Below the pieces are notes generated by a model. The model was given only the letters and a program-made list of their open reading frames with translations, did not search any database and was not told where the DNA came from. Made by a program: the position numbers and the translations under genes. DNA of 64,000 nucleotides from Octopus vulgaris (lineage: Eukaryota), in NCBI GenBank assembly GCA_951406725.2, contig OX597825.1, positions 42,408,001-42,472,000 of the forward strand, written 5' to 3'. Position 1 is the first letter of the stretch, and each line of letters starts with the position of its first letter. This document shows positions 21,538-49,269 of this stretch, piece by piece.

Positions 21538-21562
21538 TATATATATATATATATATATATAT

Positions 21563-24500
21563 CATCATAATCATCATAATAATCATCATTATTTAACATC
21601 CGTTTTCCATGCTACCATGGGTTGAACGGTTTGACCGGGGTCTGGGAAGCCAGGCGGCTGCACCAAGGCTACTGTCTGATCTGGCAGCGTTTTTATGGCT
21701 GGACGCCCATCCTAATGCCAACCACTCAGTGAATGTAGTGGGTGCTTTTAACATGCCATCAGCACAGGTATCACAACTACAATTTCAATTTGATTTTTTT
21801 TTTTATGTTGATGCACTTGACTCAATAGGTCTCCTCAAGTACAGCAGGCCATCCTGCAATCCAAGACACTTTGGATGGGCTAGGGCTTCTAAGCGAAGCT
21901 GGTGCAGGAAACAGCCATGAACTCACGTTATTTGTCGGGTCTTTGCAGTCACAGCATATCTCCAGAGGTCTCAGACTTTTGTCATTGCCTCTGTGAGACC
22001 CAACATTCGATGGTCATGCTTGACCACCTCATCCCATGTCTTCCTGGGTCTAGCTCTACTCCAGATTCCTTCAATTGTTTGGGAGTGGCACTTCTTCACA
22101 CACCTTTCCTCATCCATCCGTAGTACATGACCATACAAACACAGACATCTCTCTTGCATGCCACATCCAATGCTTCTTATGTCCAGCATTTCTCTCAGGG
22201 CACTTACACTCTGTCGTGTATGCACACTGACATTACACATCCAACGGATCATGCTAGCTTCATTTCTTTCAAGCCTACGCATGTCCTCTGCAGTCACAGC
22301 CCATGTTTCACTGCCGTCAAGCATGGCAGTTTGCACACATGCATCATACAATCTACCTTTCACTCTGAGTGAGAGACCCTTTGTCACCAGTAGGGGTAGG
22401 AGCATTCTAAACTTTGCCCAGGCTATTCTTATTCTAGTGGTAACACTCTCTGAGTATCCAGCCCCACTACTAACTTGGTCACCTAGGTAGCAGAAACTAT
22501 CAACTACTTCTAGTTTCTTCCCCAGGAGTGTAATGGAATCTGTTTTCTGAGTATTAATGGTGTCTATTGCACCTGGGCATCTGCCGCACATAAAAGCTAT
22601 CTTCTCGGTTAATTTTCCTTTGATGTTGCTGCACCACTTATGTGTCTATAGCTTACACTGGGTACATCTTATGGAGTTTCTACTTACACCTTTTCTACAA
22701 ATCGAGCAGGGCCACCTGCCTGAAGAGGTGTGTGGTGTGTTTGCCTTCCTACTTACGAGAACTTTGGTCTTTGCTACATTGACTCTAAGGCCTTTTGATT
22801 CTAAACCTAGCTTCCACACCCGAAATTCCTTTTCTAGTTTCGGTTGTGATTCTGCTATGAGGGCCAGGTCATCAGCATAGAGGAGCTCCCAGGGGGCAAC
22901 CCGTCTTGAATTCCTCTGTTATTGCCCGGAGGACTATGATGAATAAAAGGGGACTGAGGGCTGAACCTTGGTGGACCCTCTACTTCTACCCGGAATTCTT
23001 CACTATACTCATTGCCAATCCTAACCTTGCTGACGGCCTCTCTGTATAGGGCCTGTACAGCCCATATTAACCATTCATCATTCTCCAGTTTCCACATCGC
23101 CCACCAAATAAGGGATTGGGGGACCCTGTCAAAGGCTTTCTCCAAATCCATGGAAGCTATGTATAGGTGTTTATTTTTAGCTAGGTATTTCTCCTGCAGC
23201 TGTCGAACCAGGAATATGGCATCAGTGGTGCTTCTACCAGGCACAAAACCAAACTGCATCTCATCTAAGCAGACTCTCTCCCTAATGAGATGGACTATGA
23301 CCCACTCTGTGACCTTCATCACCTGATCCAACAGTTTAATACCCCTATAGTTATTTCTATCTAGAGCATCACCTTTACCCTTTTAGCAGTTGACTATGGC
23401 TCTGCTATGCCAGTCATTGGGTATGACTCCATTATGAACTACCTGGTTTACAATGCGGGTGAGTAGGCCATAACCCACACCACCAGATGGTTTAAGCATC
23501 TCAGCAGTGATTCCTGATGGGCCGGGGGCTTTTCCTGGTTTTATACCCTTAATTGTTTTATCTACTAGGGAGCTGTCTATTCGGATAGCTGGTCACTCTA
23601 CTGGGCCAACATTTGGCAGGCTCTCTTCCTCCCATTCATTCTCCACACTCAGCTGTCTCTCATAATGGCTTCTCCAAGCCTCTTTCTTTTCAGAAACATT
23701 GAACGCATCCATGCAGACACATTTCTCTCCTGTGACATCACAATTTTCTCTCACACACTGTCTAGCAATCTGAAATACCTCAGTTCTTTGGTTCTTACGT
23801 CGCTGGACATTGGCAAACTTCTTCTCTGCTTCACCCTTGGCTATGTATATCTGCCACCCAGCCTCCCTTCTGGCTACCTGGTACAGTTCCCTGCTACCCC
23901 CATCCCTCCAGGCTTTCTAGGCCTGTTTCTTTGCTCTAATGGCTTTGTTTACCATGCTATTCAACCACCACGTAACTCTAGGTCTGGAAGGGACTTTGCG
24001 CCAGCCACAGACTTGGTCTGTAGCACTCAGCAAGCTGTCCCGTAGGAATTTCCAGCTACCTTCTATGTCCGACGTCTGTAGCTCCTCCTCCTTCTCATCA
24101 AATTTCTTGATGAGTATGTCCCTAAATCTCTGACCATGTGAAGGGTTCTTTAACTTCCAAATCCTTCTTTTCTGGATTGATCTGCTTCTTGGTATCCTTC
24201 TGGCCTCGAGCCTAAAGTCACTAATGACTAGCCTATGCTTGGGGTACATTCTTCACCCAGGAGGGTCTTTGTATTTAAGAGCAACCCTGCATCCCGCTCT
24301 CTCGTGAGGATGAAATCAATCTGGCTAGCAGAGTCCCCTGACTGATAGGTTATAAGGTGGCTGTCTGGCTACCTGAAGTTAGTGTTGCAGATTAAAAGGT
24401 TACATGCATCACAGAACTCCAGTAGCCTAGTTCCCTCATCGTTTCGGGTGCCAATACCATGGCCACCATGTACCCCAGTGACGATAACCGATTCCTGCCC

Positions 24501-24902
24501 AACATGCCCATTAAATTCTCCCGCCACAAGGATGAGGTCATTTCCACTCGTCTTTGAGGTAGCCTGTAGAAGGGTATTATAAAAGTGGTCCTTCTGATCA
24601 TTTGGCAGCCCCGCATGTGGGACATAGGCGGAGATAATCGTAGCTGTGCCATTCTGTAGGATTAGCCTGAGCATAAGCACTCTATCGCATACCCTGACAA
24701 CCTCTCTGACCTCATCCACCCATTTCTCCGCAAGGAGTATGCCTACGCCCCCTACACCATCCATGTTACCATGCCAGAAGACTTTACACTTATGTGCCTT
24801 TCCTGTGAGGACCTTAGCTGAAGCACCTCTCCATCTTACCTCTTGTATGCAGCATACATCAACCCGTCTCCTTTCAAGCATCTCAACCCGTCTCCTGTCA
24901 AG

Positions 24903-24903
<1 letters not shown>
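21563..24903 (-). mobile_element. Near full-length RTE-clade LINE (APE endonuclease + RT), frameshifted
   Basis: APE motifs VDVCCIQEVRWRG and LILVAGEFNGHVG; RT motifs QFGFVPGRSTTDAIF, DLEKAFDRVP and WELLYADDL; C-terminal FCYLGD and MLDGSETW; (GAT/TAT)n tail at the 21563 end. Confidence 0.95.
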
Positions 24904-24944
<41 letters not shown>

Positions 24945-24946
<2 letters not shown>

Positions 24947-25130
24947 TGTTTTATATATGAATATGTTTATGTAAACGATGCATTTGAAGATAGGGGAAAT
25001 AGGTAATGGATGTATATGCATATTTCAAGAGTTATTGTTCCTTCTTCAGCACCACATCCAACCCATCAACTATCTATGAGCATATTGCTTAAATACCCAG
25101 AAAGTTTAATGGTGTAACACTAGTGGATAG
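24945..25130 (-). mobile_element. Hammerhead-bearing repeat unit, copy 1 (pLTR- or retrozyme-like)
   Basis: Direct repeat of 27748-27930; abuts the (TA)n run at 24905-24943. Confidence 0.75.
25009..25053 (-). ncRNA. Type I hammerhead ribozyme motif with intact core
   Basis: Minus strand GGTG-CTGAAGA-AGGAA-caataa-CTCTT-GAAA-TATGCATA-TA^CATC. Helix III region is the palindrome ATATGCATAT; cleavage triplet AUA. Confidence 0.75.
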
Positions 25131-25402
25131 TCCAATCTCTGTATTAAACTCATTCTTGGCAGCTGGTATGTAAATGTTAATTGCTAGCAAGGACTCAGTA
25201 TTTAATTTGTAACCATAATATACTACTAAGTACATTAATGGCTTGCAAGTCAATATTGTAACTTACTTTTGTGTTAGCAGTGTGATGTTTTCCTTTTGAA
25301 GTTCACCTCTTGTTGTGGCAGGTGAGAAGTAGGCTGGTCCACTACTAATAAAAAGTGGACCGACACAGTCAGTAATGTCAGTCAGTGAAGGCACACCATT
25401 CA

Positions 25403-26534
25403 GTGAACACCTGAGCCTCTGTATTAATTGCTTTTGTTTAAATCCTTGTGATTCTGTCATGTTTTCTTGTTTATGTAATTGTTGAAGGCTTAGTGCCTAT
25501 TGTTGAATTTTGTTGAAGACTGTTGCTGTTTTGCCTGCGGGCCTGTGTATTTAATTATTTCCTTCCCCCATTTAGGAGCAAAGAGACTTTGAGAAAATGA
25601 GTAGAGAACTGGAACGTGCCCATGCCAGGAGCTATGCTTTGGTGGCAGGAAGCCGTACTACTGTGACAAATGTGCTGGAGCTGCAGGAAGTGAAAATTGA
25701 AAGAGAGAAGTTGGAGAGTTGCAAGGAACTGATCCAGAAGGAGGGGTCAAGTTTAAGGTTAACCCTTCTAGAGGAAGTAACCAGCAGAATGAGAAGGACA
25801 GTGGTATTCAGTATGCTGTCTGTAACCAATAAGAAAATAGAGATGGCATCAGAGGAAGCCCTTGAGAAATGTGTGGAAGAAGTGAAGAGTGCTGCGACAT
25901 TCTACACTAGAGGGAGAAGATATAGCACTGTGAATGTGAGGTTTGCCACCAAAGAAGAGGCAATAAATCACTCCACTGTGCTGCTGAGATCACAAGAAAG
26001 GGTGTTCCTGCCGATCTATTGCAGCAAAAGAGTTGCAAGACTTAGGATTGGTAGGGTGCCACCTGAAATCAAAGAAGCTCAGCTGGTGGCAGCTATGATG
26101 TATAGAACCAAAGAAGTCACTAAGTTAATCCAAGCTGCAAGAACAAAGAAAATGAATTGATGGGGTACCGCCTGGAAATGGTTATACACCACCTTAAAGT
26201 ACATAGAAGAAGGGGAAGGACAGCAAAACAGAGGAGATATTACAGCAAGCACACAACACACAAGGTACACTTACACAGCATACATCTCCACCAGTAACAC
26301 CCCCTCCAAAAAAAGGAAAGTGCCCCAGATAGTCCAAGTTCACCTCATAGACAAGCAGACACAAGCACAGACAGGATGTAACCACTTGAGAGTGAGGCTC
26401 AGGTAGCCATTTCTATTTTATTATATAATTCATTCCCATCCATTCGTTTATGTTTTATGTCCCCACTTTGTATTGTATTGTCGGTCCTTTTGCTGTCCTT
26501 TCTGTGTAGGGCCCTAGTGGTCAATAAAGAAATG
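25403..26534 (+). mobile_element. Non-autonomous L1/Tx1-like element (ORF1 part + 3' UTR) nested in the 5' LTR
   Basis: Contains an ORF1-like reading frame and ends ...gtcaataaagaaat. Flanked by diverged ~25-bp duplications of LTR sequence (cagtcagtgaaggcacaccattcag / cagtcagcaaggtacgctgtttgg). Confidence 0.6.
25597..26160 (+). CDS. L1/Tx1-type ORF1-like protein fragment (RRM-like), transposon-derived
   Basis: 187-aa ORF with SYALVA, TVNVRFATKEEA and RLRIGRVPPEI motifs typical of non-LTR ORF1p. Confidence 0.55.
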   Translation: MSRELERAHARSYALVAGSRTTVTNVLELQEVKIEREKLESCKELIQKEGSSLRLTLLEEVTSRMRRTVVFSMLSVTNKKIEMASEEALEKCVEEVKSAATFYTRGRRYSTVNVRFATKEEAINHSTVLLRSQERVFLPIYCSKRVARLRIGRVPPEIKEAQLVAAMMYRTKEVTKLIQAARTKKMN

Positions 26535-26794
26535 CAGTCAGCAAGGTACGCTGTTTGGGCCTCTTCTGGAGAGATGATGAAATACACCGTCATAATGTGG
26601 GACATAACATTGGTGACAAGGATTTGTAACTCATACAGCCACTGATATGTAGTAGCAGGACATATGAGTGCTGATTAGGATACCTCCCACTGTATAACGG
26701 TATCATTTTAACAGTGGTAATAAGGTTAAGAATGTCAAAATGGAAGACCTATATTCAAGAACAATGAAAGAAAGTTTGATGGGTTCGAACTCTA

Positions 26795-27180
26795 ACACAG
26801 AACTGAACTACACAGGGTGAAAAGTAATATATACACAGTGAAAAATATATAAAAAAGATTCTGGAAAAAAAATTGCTAACACAGAATTGAACTACACACA
26901 GGGAAAAATATATATGATAAAAGATCCTGAAAAGAAAAAATGTCTGATAAAACTGGAACTCTTCACAGAATTGAACTACACACAGTGAAAAATTATTCTG
27001 TGTGGAAGAAATAATAATAATAATAATAAGTTCATTCAAAGGATTTATAAGTCAGGTTGCTATATATAGTAAAACTACCCAGTAATAATGTAGACTTGGT
27101 ACTACCTATGACATTTTGAAAAAAAAATGATTCTGTGTGGAACAAAAAATAAATATAATAATAAATCCATACAAAGGAAT
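26795..27180. repeat. Internal repeats of the LTR element
   Basis: acagaa(c/t)tgaactacaca occurs three times (~26796, 26881, 26965); attctgtgtggaa...aataataa...caaagga occurs twice (~26995, 27130). Confidence 0.8.
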
Positions 27181-27747
27181 TAATAATTTTGTGTGTAACA
27201 AAAAATAATTCTGGTTAATGATACATTTAAAGTGAATCATGCCAGAAGGGTTCAAATGTAAGCAGATATCTATTGAAACTGAAAACGAACCAATTGCTAA
27301 GAAAGTTAAAATGGACAAAGAAAATGCAAGCCATTTTGTGATTGAGGATACTAAACAAGTCCTCCTTGTAAAGACTCCAGTTGAAATGTCAATGGAAGTG
27401 ACTAGTAAAGAACACATAGAAAATTCTGAAATTAGAGAATCTGAGTGCAATGAAAGGAAAAGTCATAGAAATGAAATATATATAATGCTGTGTGAAGAAA
27501 TAATATATATTAGAAAAAAATTTTGTAGAAAAAATTCTCAAAGGGGGTGATGTTGTGACAGACACCCTCCCCCCACCGGTGAGAAGTGGGCTGGTCCACT
27601 ACTGATAAATAGAGGACTTACACAGTCTGTAATGTCAGTCAGTGAGGTATGCTGTTCAGGCCGAACAACGAAATACATCGTCATAATGCAGGACATAACA
27701 ACTCTACAGATTTTGTATAAAATTCAGAGCCCACACTGAAAGTTACA

Positions 27748-28040
27748 ATGTTTCTTATATGAATACATTTATATAAACAATGTGATCAAAAATGAAAATT
27801 CAGGTAATGGGTGTATATGCATATTTTTAATTGTTGTTCTTTCATCAGTACCATATCCAACCCATCAATTATCCACAAATGCATTGCTGAAATACCCACT
27901 AAGTTTAGTGATATAATTCTACTGGATACCACTACACTTAGTGGGTACTTAAGCAATATGTTTGTGAATAACTGATGGATTTGATGTGGTGCTGATGAAA
28001 GAGCAATAACTCTTAAAATATGCATATACATCCATTATCC
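27748..28040. mobile_element. Hammerhead-bearing repeat copy 2 with inverted arm (~240-bp palindrome)
   Basis: 27803-~27905 is the inverted complement of ~27935-28040. Both arms carry decayed hammerhead cores. Confidence 0.8.
27988..28032 (+). ncRNA. Hammerhead motif with a G12>A change
   Basis: GGTG-CTGATGA-AAGAG-caataa-CTCTT-AAAA-TATGCATA-TA-CATC. Confidence 0.6.
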
Positions 28041-28275
28041 ATTAACATTGTGCATCTGAAGACTTTGTGCTTTTCTTATATCGGGAGGAAACCAAAAGTA
28101 AATAAGGATGAAAATGTACATAGACTGGGAAAAGATGGACAGGGCAAGTAAAAGTCAATACCAAAGCAGATAGAAGTAAGGTTAGGAGATGAAGAAGTAC
28201 AGACAATGTATGAAAAGATGAGAGAAGGAAAAGATGATTAATAATAATAATGATGATAATAATAATAATAATAGT

Positions 28276-28686
28276 AATCTTTTCTACTAAAGGCACAAGG
28301 GGCCTGCAATTCTAGTCCATTACATCGCCCTTAGTGTTTCACTAGTACTAAATTTATCGACTCCAAAATGATGAAAAACAAAGTCGACCTCAGCAGAATT
28401 TGAACTCAGAACAAAAAGACAGATGAAATGCCATTAAGCATTTTTACCCAATGTGCTAACGATTCTGCCAGGTCACCACTTTAATAATATTCCTTTCTAC
28501 TGGAAGTTCAAGGCCTTAAATTGGGGGGAAGGGATTAAGTGAATTACATTGATCCCAGTGCTTAAGCCCAAAAGAATGAAAGGCAAAGTTGACCTCAGTG
28601 GAATTGGAACTCAGAATGTAGTGACGGGCAAAATACTGCTAAGCATTTTGCCTGGCATGCTAGAGATTCTGCCAGCTCACTGCCTT
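28276..28686 (-). mobile_element. Two tandem family A SINEs
   Basis: Two reverse-complement copies (aaagtcgacctcagcagaatttgaactcagaac; aaagttgacctcagtggaattggaactcagaa) between (AAT)n tracts. Confidence 0.75.
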
Positions 28687-28698
28687 AATAATAATAAC

Positions 28699-46665: not shown

Positions 46666-47495
<830 letters not shown>

Positions 47496-47916: not shown

Positions 47917-47961
<45 letters not shown>

Positions 47962-48012
47962 TTATACATTTGTTTTGCAAGATTTTTTATGTGAAATCAT
48001 GTGTTGAAATAG

Positions 48013-48457
48013 ATATTTTTGTATTTAGGGATGGTCATGTTGCCAGTTTGTCCCCAAAAAAACACACGCACTATATATTTTGTGTTAATTTCCTTCAGCT
48101 TTATTTTATTTTTTATATTATTCCTATTTCTGTCAGAGTTCTTTCGTCACACATATGTGACCTCATCCTTTGCTTTCTTCTTTCTTATTTGTTTGTCTCT
48201 CCTTACTAACAATCAGCCATTTGTGTGTCTCTCCTTACTAACGATCAGCCGTTTTGGCTGATCGTTAGTAAGGACAGACACACAAATAAGAAGGAAGAAA
48301 GCAAAGGACCACTGATGAGGTCACAGAAGTGTGACGAAAGAAGTCTGGCCGAAATATGATTAACGTAAAAAATAAAATAAAGCTGAAGCAAATTAACACC
48401 AAATATATAGTGCGTGTGTTTTTATTGGCTAAACTGGCAACATGACCATCTCTAAAT

Positions 48458-48467
<10 letters not shown>
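48013..48467. repeat. ~455-bp near-perfect palindrome carrying a hammerhead motif
   Basis: Arms pair end to end around the loop gtttt (48251-48255). The left arm has a ~32-bp tandem duplication and a 7-nt deletion in the ribozyme core. Confidence 0.9.
48306..48350 (+). ncRNA. Type I hammerhead motif (core intact, helix III imperfect)
   Basis: GGACCA-CTGATGA-G-GTCACA-gaag-TGTGAC-GAAA-GAA-GTC-TGGCC. Confidence 0.65.
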
Positions 48468-48522
<55 letters not shown>

Positions 48523-48744
48523 CGAATATTCTTAGAAATATCGCCACCAGTGGCCTAGTATGTATAAAAAGTCAATAGACAACATATTATCAATATAAAA
48601 TAGTGAACATTTAAACACAAGAGAAAACTATCTCTAACAGGTAATTTTTACACGCTAGAAGAAGCAGTCAAAACGACCAGAACCAAGTTTAAGAGCAATT
48701 TTTGAAGGGAAAGAAAAATATAACTTTTACCTTGTTATTTTTTG

Positions 48745-48815
48745 CGGTTATACCTAGGTTTCAAATTTCTTTAGCAATTAAAATATTTTGCTAGACGAAT
48801 TCTCATCAGTAACCG
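48745..48815 (-). ncRNA. Type I hammerhead ribozyme motif, best preserved in the window
   Basis: CGGTTA-CTGATGA-GAATTC..TAGCAA-loop-TTGCTA..GAAATTT-GAAA-C-CTAG-GTA^TAACCG. It has a 6-bp helix I, a complete core, palindromic ACCTAGGT helix III and a GUA triplet. Confidence 0.85.
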
Positions 48816-49023
48816 TGCCTTTATTTGTGGTTCTCGTCGTTTTGACTGCTATCCTATATATATATTTTATGAATATTATCTTAGCATTTTCGAAGATCAG
48901 CTCAGCATTATCCAATTACTGCTGACTGAAACTGCACTTGCACTGTGAATTTTGAAACATTATAACATATAATGATGAGACACGTGTTATTTGTCTCTGA
49001 ATTATATGTTAGTTGTTAAGGCA

Positions 49024-49094
49024 CGGTTACTGATGAGGATTCGCCTAGCAAATTATTTTGTTTGCTAAAGAAATTTGAAACCTAGTTATAACTG
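49024..49094 (+). ncRNA. Hammerhead motif, partner copy with a helix III mismatch
   Basis: CGGTTA-CTGATGA-GGATTC...GAAATTT-GAAA-C-CTAG-TTA-TAACTG. Confidence 0.7.
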
Positions 49095-49216
49095 CAAAAA
49101 ATAACAAGGTGAAAGTTTTTATTTTTCATTCCCAACGAAAATTGCTCTTAAATGTGGTTCTGGTCATTTTGACTGCTTCTTCTAGCATGTAAAAATTCTT
49201 GTGTTTAAATTTACAC

Positions 49217-49269
<53 letters not shown>

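What the first reader, a model, noticed from the sequence alone, without database searches (positions are those of the whole stretch)
24945..28040. Hidden retrozyme-like tandem: two same-strand hammerheads 406 nt apart once a nested LTR element is removed
Seen: 24945-25130 and 27748-27930 are direct repeats, each with a minus-strand hammerhead motif (predicted cuts at 25013/25012 and 27814/27813, 2801 nt apart). Removing the LTR element plus one TSD (2395 nt) leaves a 406-nt non-coding monomer. It has an inverted partial copy upstream and a TA run downstream. Established: metazoan non-LTR retrozymes are short tandem monomers bounded by type I hammerheads that yield small circular RNAs and are thought to use Penelope machinery. 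Inference: this is a relic copy of a cephalopod retrozyme or mini-PLE family. Only the 25009-25053 core is intact here.
Basis: partly seen in the sequence, partly recalled or inferred. Interest (0 to 1): 0.85.

Follow-up and report, generated by a model that had tools for sequence, protein, structure and literature searches.

The report
Fossil retrozyme with Penelope-type insertion ends
This is a decayed copy of an old ~408-base non-coding repeat family with a predicted self-cutting hammerhead RNA, and the family's copies end at two fixed inner sites ~120 bases apart rather than at the predicted cut, the pattern left by Penelope-like jumping genes, which likely moved it.

Summary
Two minus-strand type I hammerhead motifs (predicted cuts 25013/12 and 27814/13) lie 406 nt apart once a 2395-nt LTR-type insertion is discounted. 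Only the first keeps both core halves. Other copies run unbroken across the insertion point with a ~408-410 nt period. The family is dispersed (roughly 500-1500 copies, estimated), non-coding, old (copies ~15% from column majorities, none young) and at most 2.1 units long. None of 81 loci adjoins a Penelope ORF. New here: copies are not bounded by the hammerhead. 3' ends fall at two internal sites (~125 and ~250 nt after the cut) in 58 of 90 strand units, then 18 of 32 in fresh loci; none lies within 10 nt of the cut. In head-to-head inverted pairs, one arm uses each site in 14 of 15 classifiable pairs. That is the Penelope 'tail' signature, with a ~120-nt tail instead of 30-40. It is a new member of the animal non-LTR retrozyme / non-autonomous Penelope class. 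Cleavage, circular RNA and the partner element were not shown. The scan noted head-to-head hammerhead mini-elements before, in another genome.

The parts
27927..28043 (+). inverted, 5'-truncated arm (monomer phase 16-132), head-to-head with the main unit; hammerhead with G12 changed to A, predicted cut position 28028
27706..27928 (-). main unit, first part (phase 1-230), with decayed hammerhead (C3 at 27848, stem II broken, AAAA for GAAA, predicted cut 27814/27813)
25311..27700 (+). later-inserted composite non-autonomous LTR element: 1299-nt left end (25311-26609) holding a 194-aa frame with no Pfam match, TGG primer-site-like start at 26611, purine tract 27540-27547, 150-nt right LTR 27551-27700; TSD cctct (25306-25310) / actct (27701-27705)
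25132..25310 (-). main unit, second part (phase 228-407); covers both family end sites, which this copy reads through
24946..25129 (-). main unit, start of the second turn (phase 1-184); ends short of both family end sites
25000..25072 (-). type I hammerhead motif with intact core (C3 at 25049): 4-bp stem II, 3-bp stem III closed by a palindromic loop, AUA triplet, predicted cut 25013/25012
24905..24943 (.). (TA)19 run between the element and the LINE
21563..24904 (-). neighbouring 5'-truncated, frameshifted LINE (endonuclease and RT matches; 'RTE-type' is my recalled label), bounded by TA runs on both sides; not part of the element

Best explanation
This is a decayed insertion of a ~408-nt non-coding, hammerhead-bearing repeat family whose copies end at two internal sites and often sit as head-to-head pairs, and which was likely copied into the genome by the protein of an autonomous Penelope-like element. 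Shown: tandem period, motif, variable 5' truncation, two 3' end sites (S, phase ~236-256; L, phase ~355-379; cut at phase ~117), one S and one L arm per inverted pair, both arms from one sequence variant, later splitting by an LTR element. Inferred: (1) tandem copies were transcribed and the hammerheads, probably as dimers through the palindromic stem III, cut out monomers that were ligated to circles; (2) a Penelope-type GIY-YIG nuclease nicked both strands of AT-rich DNA; (3) each nick primed reverse transcription at one of the two internal sites; (4) the RT ran across one or two hammerhead sites and fell off at random, giving 0.2-2.1 units; (5) when both cDNAs were long they joined 5' to 5' and gave the inverted pair with a one-sided ~120-nt tail. 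The family appears extinct.
For: Ends: 58 of 90 strand units from 61 loci end in S or L, against 11% of the monomer's length (p 6e-33, windows chosen after seeing the data). With the windows fixed, 18 of 32 units from 20 fresh loci do (p 8e-10). None of 122 ends within 10 nt of the cut, and only 4 of 98 free 5' ends do. Pairs: of 21 head-to-head pairs, 11 S+L, 1 L+L, 0 S+S, 9 with an eroded end; of 6 fresh pairs, 3 S+L and 3 with an eroded end. Read-through: 77 of 90 units cross the cut site and 14 cross it twice. One template per insertion: units of one locus share minority letters at 22% against 13% between loci, and no locus mixes the two called subfamilies. Literature: partial tandems, 5' inversions and a one-sided 30-40 bp tail are Penelope hallmarks (PMC8557442); two internal RT start sites make the tail, both strands are nicked, and AT-rich DNA is preferred (PMC11167929). 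The genome holds at least 150 GIY-YIG matches, many in intact 781-aa frames. Flanks after the ends are 71% AT against 64%, with microsatellites in 15 of 62 against 42 of 488.
Against: No partner found: the family profile finds nothing below E 7.6 in 30 Penelope-type loci, only 30 of 150 listed matches being examined. Covariation is not above shuffles (6 pairs with both-side changes against 5.8). The one stem II A-U to G-C switch (p 2.5e-5 among 5017 tests) is a single subfamily event. The active fold is on average 11 kcal/mol less stable than an alternative hairpin that buries the cut (15 intact copies). Natural monomers fold no better than shuffles as circles (z +1.6 to -1.7, 7 copies), and no consensus structure was predicted between S and L. 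The window's own two ends fall in neither site. The ~120-nt tail is 3-4 times the published length. Both end sites are AT-rich TTAA-type stretches, so target microhomology may contribute, unlike the non-homologous priming reported for the anole element.
Confidence: 0.8

Rival explanations
1. Same Penelope-type mobilisation, but from uncut linear tandem transcripts: the hammerhead is a passenger inherited from a pseudo-LTR and no circle was involved (a mini-PLE rather than a true retrozyme).
For: In the anole element cleavage is not needed and unprocessed RNA is the main template. The active fold here is predicted unfavourable. No copy exceeds 865 nt. Eight of nine Xenopus dimers did not cleave in vitro.
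Against: Two subfamilies differ at the tolerant core position N7 and at a paired stem II position while keeping the core. The motif has a full stem III and a 6-nt loop II, unlike the minimal pseudo-LTR hammerheads. 5' ends show no sharp cap at a start site. These points are weak; the DNA alone cannot separate the two templates.
Confidence: 0.4
2. The copies are only the 5'-truncated pseudo-LTR ends of a long autonomous Penelope-like element, and the 400-nt spacing is local.
For: Most Penelope insertions are heavily 5'-truncated, and only the best 40 candidates were scored per search.
Against: The sequence wraps on itself at ~408 nt in many loci. All 17 exact-core hits lie in monomer arrays. 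Free 5' flanks of 46 segments share no common upstream sequence (3 incidental matches). The only Penelope-protein matches in 81 loci are four short weak ones (E 2e-6 to 8e-5); the one inspected lies ~370 nt outside the element.
Confidence: 0.06
3. The family is a SINE or satellite moved by a LINE or by DNA-level duplication, and the hammerhead motif is chance or irrelevant.
For: A LINE lies next to the window copy. Rfam gives no hammerhead match. Covariation is not significant.
Against: There are two internal end sites with S/L pairing and no A-rich or repeat tail at the ends. The LINE sits within a TA run on both sides. 86% of cells pair in the hammerhead helices against 28-48% for slid controls. 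Copies are dispersed over many contigs, not in long arrays.
Confidence: 0.08

Closest known systems
Metazoan non-LTR retrozymes (Cervera and de la Pena 2020, PMC7229834), above all the mussel Mytilus 350-390 nt family
   Same: Non-coding 150-450 nt unit, one type I hammerhead per unit, GC under 50% (29-35% here), no LTR/PBS/PPT of its own, co-occurring Penelope-like elements.
   Different: Old and dispersed with at most 2.1 units rather than long arrays; no RNA evidence; no strong self-pairing in the decayed copies; inverted arms and two internal end sites are not described in the parts of that paper I read.
Non-LTR retrozymes as non-autonomous PLE derivatives (Li, Clavereau, Pollet 2026, bioRxiv 10.64898/2026.07.22.740005)
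   Same: Same conclusion on origin and mobilisation.
   Different: They argue from co-occurrence and pseudo-LTR homology in vertebrates and favour local tandem expansion. Here the evidence is insertion anatomy in an invertebrate-type genome, tandems form at insertion, and no pseudo-LTR homologue was found.
EN+ Penelope-like elements (Penelope/Poseidon, Neptune, Naiad; Craig et al. 2021, PMC8557442; anole PAc, Frangieh et al. 2024, PMC11167929)
   Same: Partial tandems, 5' truncation, head-to-head inverted arm, one-sided tail from two internal start sites downstream of the hammerhead, AT-rich or microsatellite targets.
   Different: No ORF; 408-nt period; tail ~120 nt rather than 30-40; hammerhead of the canonical type with stem III rather than the minimal type.
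Non-autonomous Chlamys elements such as MRC1 (PMC8557442)
   Same: Non-coding elements that form pseudo-LTRs and head-to-tail copies using Penelope-type machinery.
   Different: Those are algal, mostly lack canonical hammerheads and resemble their partners at the 3' end.

Membership tests
Metazoan non-LTR retrozyme | Short (150-450 nt) unit in head-to-tail tandem | tested here: met
   ~408-410 nt period; 14 of 90 units cross two cut sites; longest 865 nt
Metazoan non-LTR retrozyme | Type I hammerhead motif in each unit | tested here: met
   30 of 65 segments keep both core halves; helices pair in 86% of cells; no Rfam match; only one of three window cores intact
Metazoan non-LTR retrozyme | Non-coding, GC under 50%, no LTR/PBS/PPT | tested here: met
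   GC 0.29-0.35; the long frames listed are simple repeats or neighbouring elements
Metazoan non-LTR retrozyme | TSD longer than 4 bp when present | tested here: inconclusive
   matches of 10 nt or more in 12 of 48 loci against 5.1 (max 9) in shuffled pairings, many AT-rich
Metazoan non-LTR retrozyme | Self-cleavage in vitro | not testable with these tools
   folding predicts a competing hairpin
Metazoan non-LTR retrozyme | Expressed as circular RNA | not testable with these tools
   no raw RNA reads were available for this stretch
Metazoan non-LTR retrozyme | Highly self-paired monomer | tested here: inconclusive
   no excess over shuffles in 7 natural copies, but they are ~15% decayed
Non-autonomous Penelope-like element | Partial tandem with variable 5' truncation | tested here: met
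Non-autonomous Penelope-like element | Inverted 5'-truncated copy at the 5' end | tested here: met
   21 pairs in 61 loci and 6 in 20 loci
Non-autonomous Penelope-like element | One-sided tail (two internal 3' end sites) | tested here: met
   S+L in 14 of 15 classifiable pairs; length ~120 nt, not 30-40
Non-autonomous Penelope-like element | Sequence shared with the pseudo-LTR of an autonomous partner | tested here: inconclusive
   none in 30 of 150 listed GIY-YIG loci; most are one young family
Autonomous Penelope-like element | RT plus GIY-YIG ORF between the repeats | tested here: not met

The most novel reading that the evidence does not exclude
A circular-RNA retrozyme whose genomic copies record, insertion by insertion, a two-nick Penelope reaction: each target strand primes on the RNA circle at its own internal site, ~125 and ~250 nt past the self-cleavage junction. 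This would be direct anatomical evidence for how animal retrozyme circles are written into DNA, and would show that the Penelope tail can be ~120 nt.
Probability: 0.4. Interest if true: 0.68.

Novelty: new member of a known kind. Interest (0 to 1): 0.45.

Why it matters
The retrozyme papers I read propose Penelope machinery from shared hammerheads, co-occurrence and pseudo-LTR homology, and leave open where copying starts. Here the insertion ends name two start sites and show that the two arms of an inverted insertion use different ones, which also bears on second-strand synthesis in Penelope-like elements. The same end analysis can be run on live retrozyme families (mussel, coral, axolotl), and the two sites can be tested with purified protein. 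The window copy itself is a dead fossil, and the class is published.

Tried and rejected
Rfam scan: no hammerhead family; the miRNA match only reflects the inverted arms. Sequencing runs: no RNA holder listed, which says nothing on expression. Empty site for the LTR insertion in related organisms: none among the 15 joints shown (195 not shown); contigs of three other coded organisms bridge one or both junctions (X5, X12, X20), so the insertion looks older than their split. Partner search: nothing in 30 GIY-YIG loci, no shared upstream flanks. Covariation: not above shuffles, on 55 of 65 listed segments; 10 with indels were left out, three of them from the minor subfamily. Structure joining S and L: none predicted from 20 copies. 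Circular self-pairing: none above shuffles. The idea that the window's two tandem cores come from different subfamilies: undecided, two of four diagnostic letters each way. The TA run as a family tail: rejected. A Pfam accession recalled for a Penelope domain does not exist in the library.

Full report
Observation. All coordinates hold. On the minus strand the locus reads: an inverted arm (27927-28043), then monomer phases 1-230 (27928-27702), a 2394-nt gap, phases 228-407 (25307-25132), phases 1-184 (25129-24946), and (TA)19. Phase means position in the natural reference monomer L007:1267-1676; the predicted cut is at phase ~117. The gap is an LTR-type element with TG...CA ends and a cctct/actct duplication. 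Its family has ~150-nt LTRs around an internal region elsewhere in the genome, and its 1.3-kb left end also occurs elsewhere. Contigs of three other coded organisms bridge its junctions. Other copies of the host repeat run unbroken over the insertion point, so the 406-nt monomer is real. The main unit is 592 nt, or 1.45 turns.

The ribozyme motif. The copy at 25000-25072 has CUGAAGA, a 4-bp stem II, GAAA, a 3-bp stem III closed by a palindromic tetraloop, AUA, and a bulged stem I. The other two window copies have lost G12. Rfam does not score it. Across the family 40 of 65 segments keep CUGANGA and 30 keep both halves. In 55 aligned segments 85.6% of helix cells pair, against 28-48% for slid controls, but covariation does not exceed shuffles. 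A minor subfamily (14 of 89 called segments) changes N7 and a stem II pair together; that is one event. In 15 intact copies the active fold averages -5.5 kcal/mol against -16.9 for a hairpin that buries the cut, so cleavage may be weak or may need a dimer or a protein. A short palindromic helix III and dimer cleavage are typical of metazoan type I motifs (PMC4209133, passages).

The family. The host genome G000 has 2.8 Gb in 227 contigs. Searches gave 1627, 1092 and 850 first-look candidates, 40 scored each time. An exact 35-base core occurs 17 times, against 0 for the reversed control, which scales to ~500 cores. Median pairwise identity is 75.6%, and 108 segments lie 10-21% from the column majorities. 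No young copy was seen, though the search skips very common words. I analysed 61 distinct loci (ten duplicates dropped from 60, 11 new ones of 17 added), then 20 fresh loci picked by core alone. Length-based searches favour long copies.

Insertion anatomy, the main result. 3' ends cluster at phases 236-256 (S) and 355-379 (L): 30 and 28 of 90 units, then 10 and 8 of 32 with the windows fixed. None of 122 lies within 10 nt of the cut. Beyond the ends the flanks are unrelated to each other, and many copies read through S, so this is not a profile artefact. 5' ends are scattered, 4 of 98 near the cut. 77 of 90 units cross the cut site. Head-to-head pairs number 21 + 6. Using wider windows (220-262, 355-396), 14 are S+L, 1 is L+L, none is S+S, and 12 have at least one end outside both windows. 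With equal independent use of the sites, 14 or more of 15 has a chance of about 5e-4 (my arithmetic). Arms of one locus share minority letters at 22% against 13% between loci. TSD-like matches of 10 nt or more occur in 12 of 48 unnested loci against 5 in controls (13 loci left out). The window's own ends (phases 132 and 184) fall in neither site, probably through later erosion (inference).

Mechanism. Penelope-like elements show partial tandems, an inverted 5'-truncated arm and a 30-40 bp tail often at one end only (PMC8557442, passages). The purified anole protein nicks both strands at AT-rich DNA and starts at two internal sites whose interval is the tail; hammerhead cleavage is not needed (PMC11167929, parts 1-2 of 4). 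The family matches this with a ~120-nt tail. I therefore infer two-nick priming by a Penelope-type protein in trans (0.8). Whether the template was a ligated circle or an uncut tandem transcript cannot be told from DNA; I put the circle at a little over even. The genome has several Penelope-type families with GIY-YIG domains, one with many intact 781-aa frames. None of the 30 loci examined shares sequence with the monomer, so the partner is unknown. None of 81 family loci adjoins such an ORF.

Comparison and novelty. Non-LTR retrozymes are described from coral, mussel (350-390 nt) and axolotl, with Penelope-like elements proposed as movers (PMC7229834, parts 2-4 of 6; PMC7761336 and PMC6155905, passages). 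A 2026 preprint argues they are non-autonomous Penelope derivatives (10.64898/2026.07.22.740005, parts 1-3 of 5). Opposite-strand pairs of minimal hammerheads 100-700 bp apart are also known. So the kind is known. Seven searches showed no report of a cephalopod retrozyme or of tail-type ends in a retrozyme; a 2026 octopus repeat annotation has no mention of hammerheads (PMC13282606, term search). I read no supplements, which may list such families or show insertion ends, and Repbase and Dfam were not available. The host's identity was not tested.

Verdict. Observation confirmed, interpretation supported with a refinement: a fossil member of the retrozyme / mini-Penelope class. The value lies in the family's end pattern, not in this copy. 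Interest 0.45.

Noticed in passing
window 47958-48465: Palindromic element between two TA runs with a hammerhead-like core at 48312 (+) and a decayed inverted partner near 48140-48170; a different family from the one studied.
   Followed up: no
window 48517-49222: Second inverted pair between TA runs, with CUGAUGA...GAAA cores at 48809 (-) and 49030 (+) and a long stem II region; likely another Penelope-type mini-element.
   Followed up: no
L084, L089 and similar loci of G000: Young Penelope-type family with many intact 781-aa RT + GIY-YIG frames and a cysteine linker; its 3' region holds tandem ~60-75 nt repeats. It looks recently active.
   Followed up: partly
window 25311-26609: The left end of the nested LTR element is a 1.3-kb long form that starts and ends like the family's 150-nt LTR and holds a 194-aa frame (25576-26160) with no Pfam match; the same long form occurs at other loci (L109, L112).
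   Followed up: partly
window 21538-24943: 5'-truncated LINE with a short-repeat 3' tail, inserted within a TA microsatellite (TA runs at both ends).
   Followed up: partly
window 28050-28680: Two ~205-nt SINE-like repeats (28363-28489, 28568-28693) next to (TAA)n runs.
   Followed up: no
L038: A 96%-identical local duplicate of a family copy with its flank, 1.4 kb apart; counted once in the alignments.
   Followed up: partly
window 46667-47494: An 830-nt degenerate TA run.
   Followed up: no
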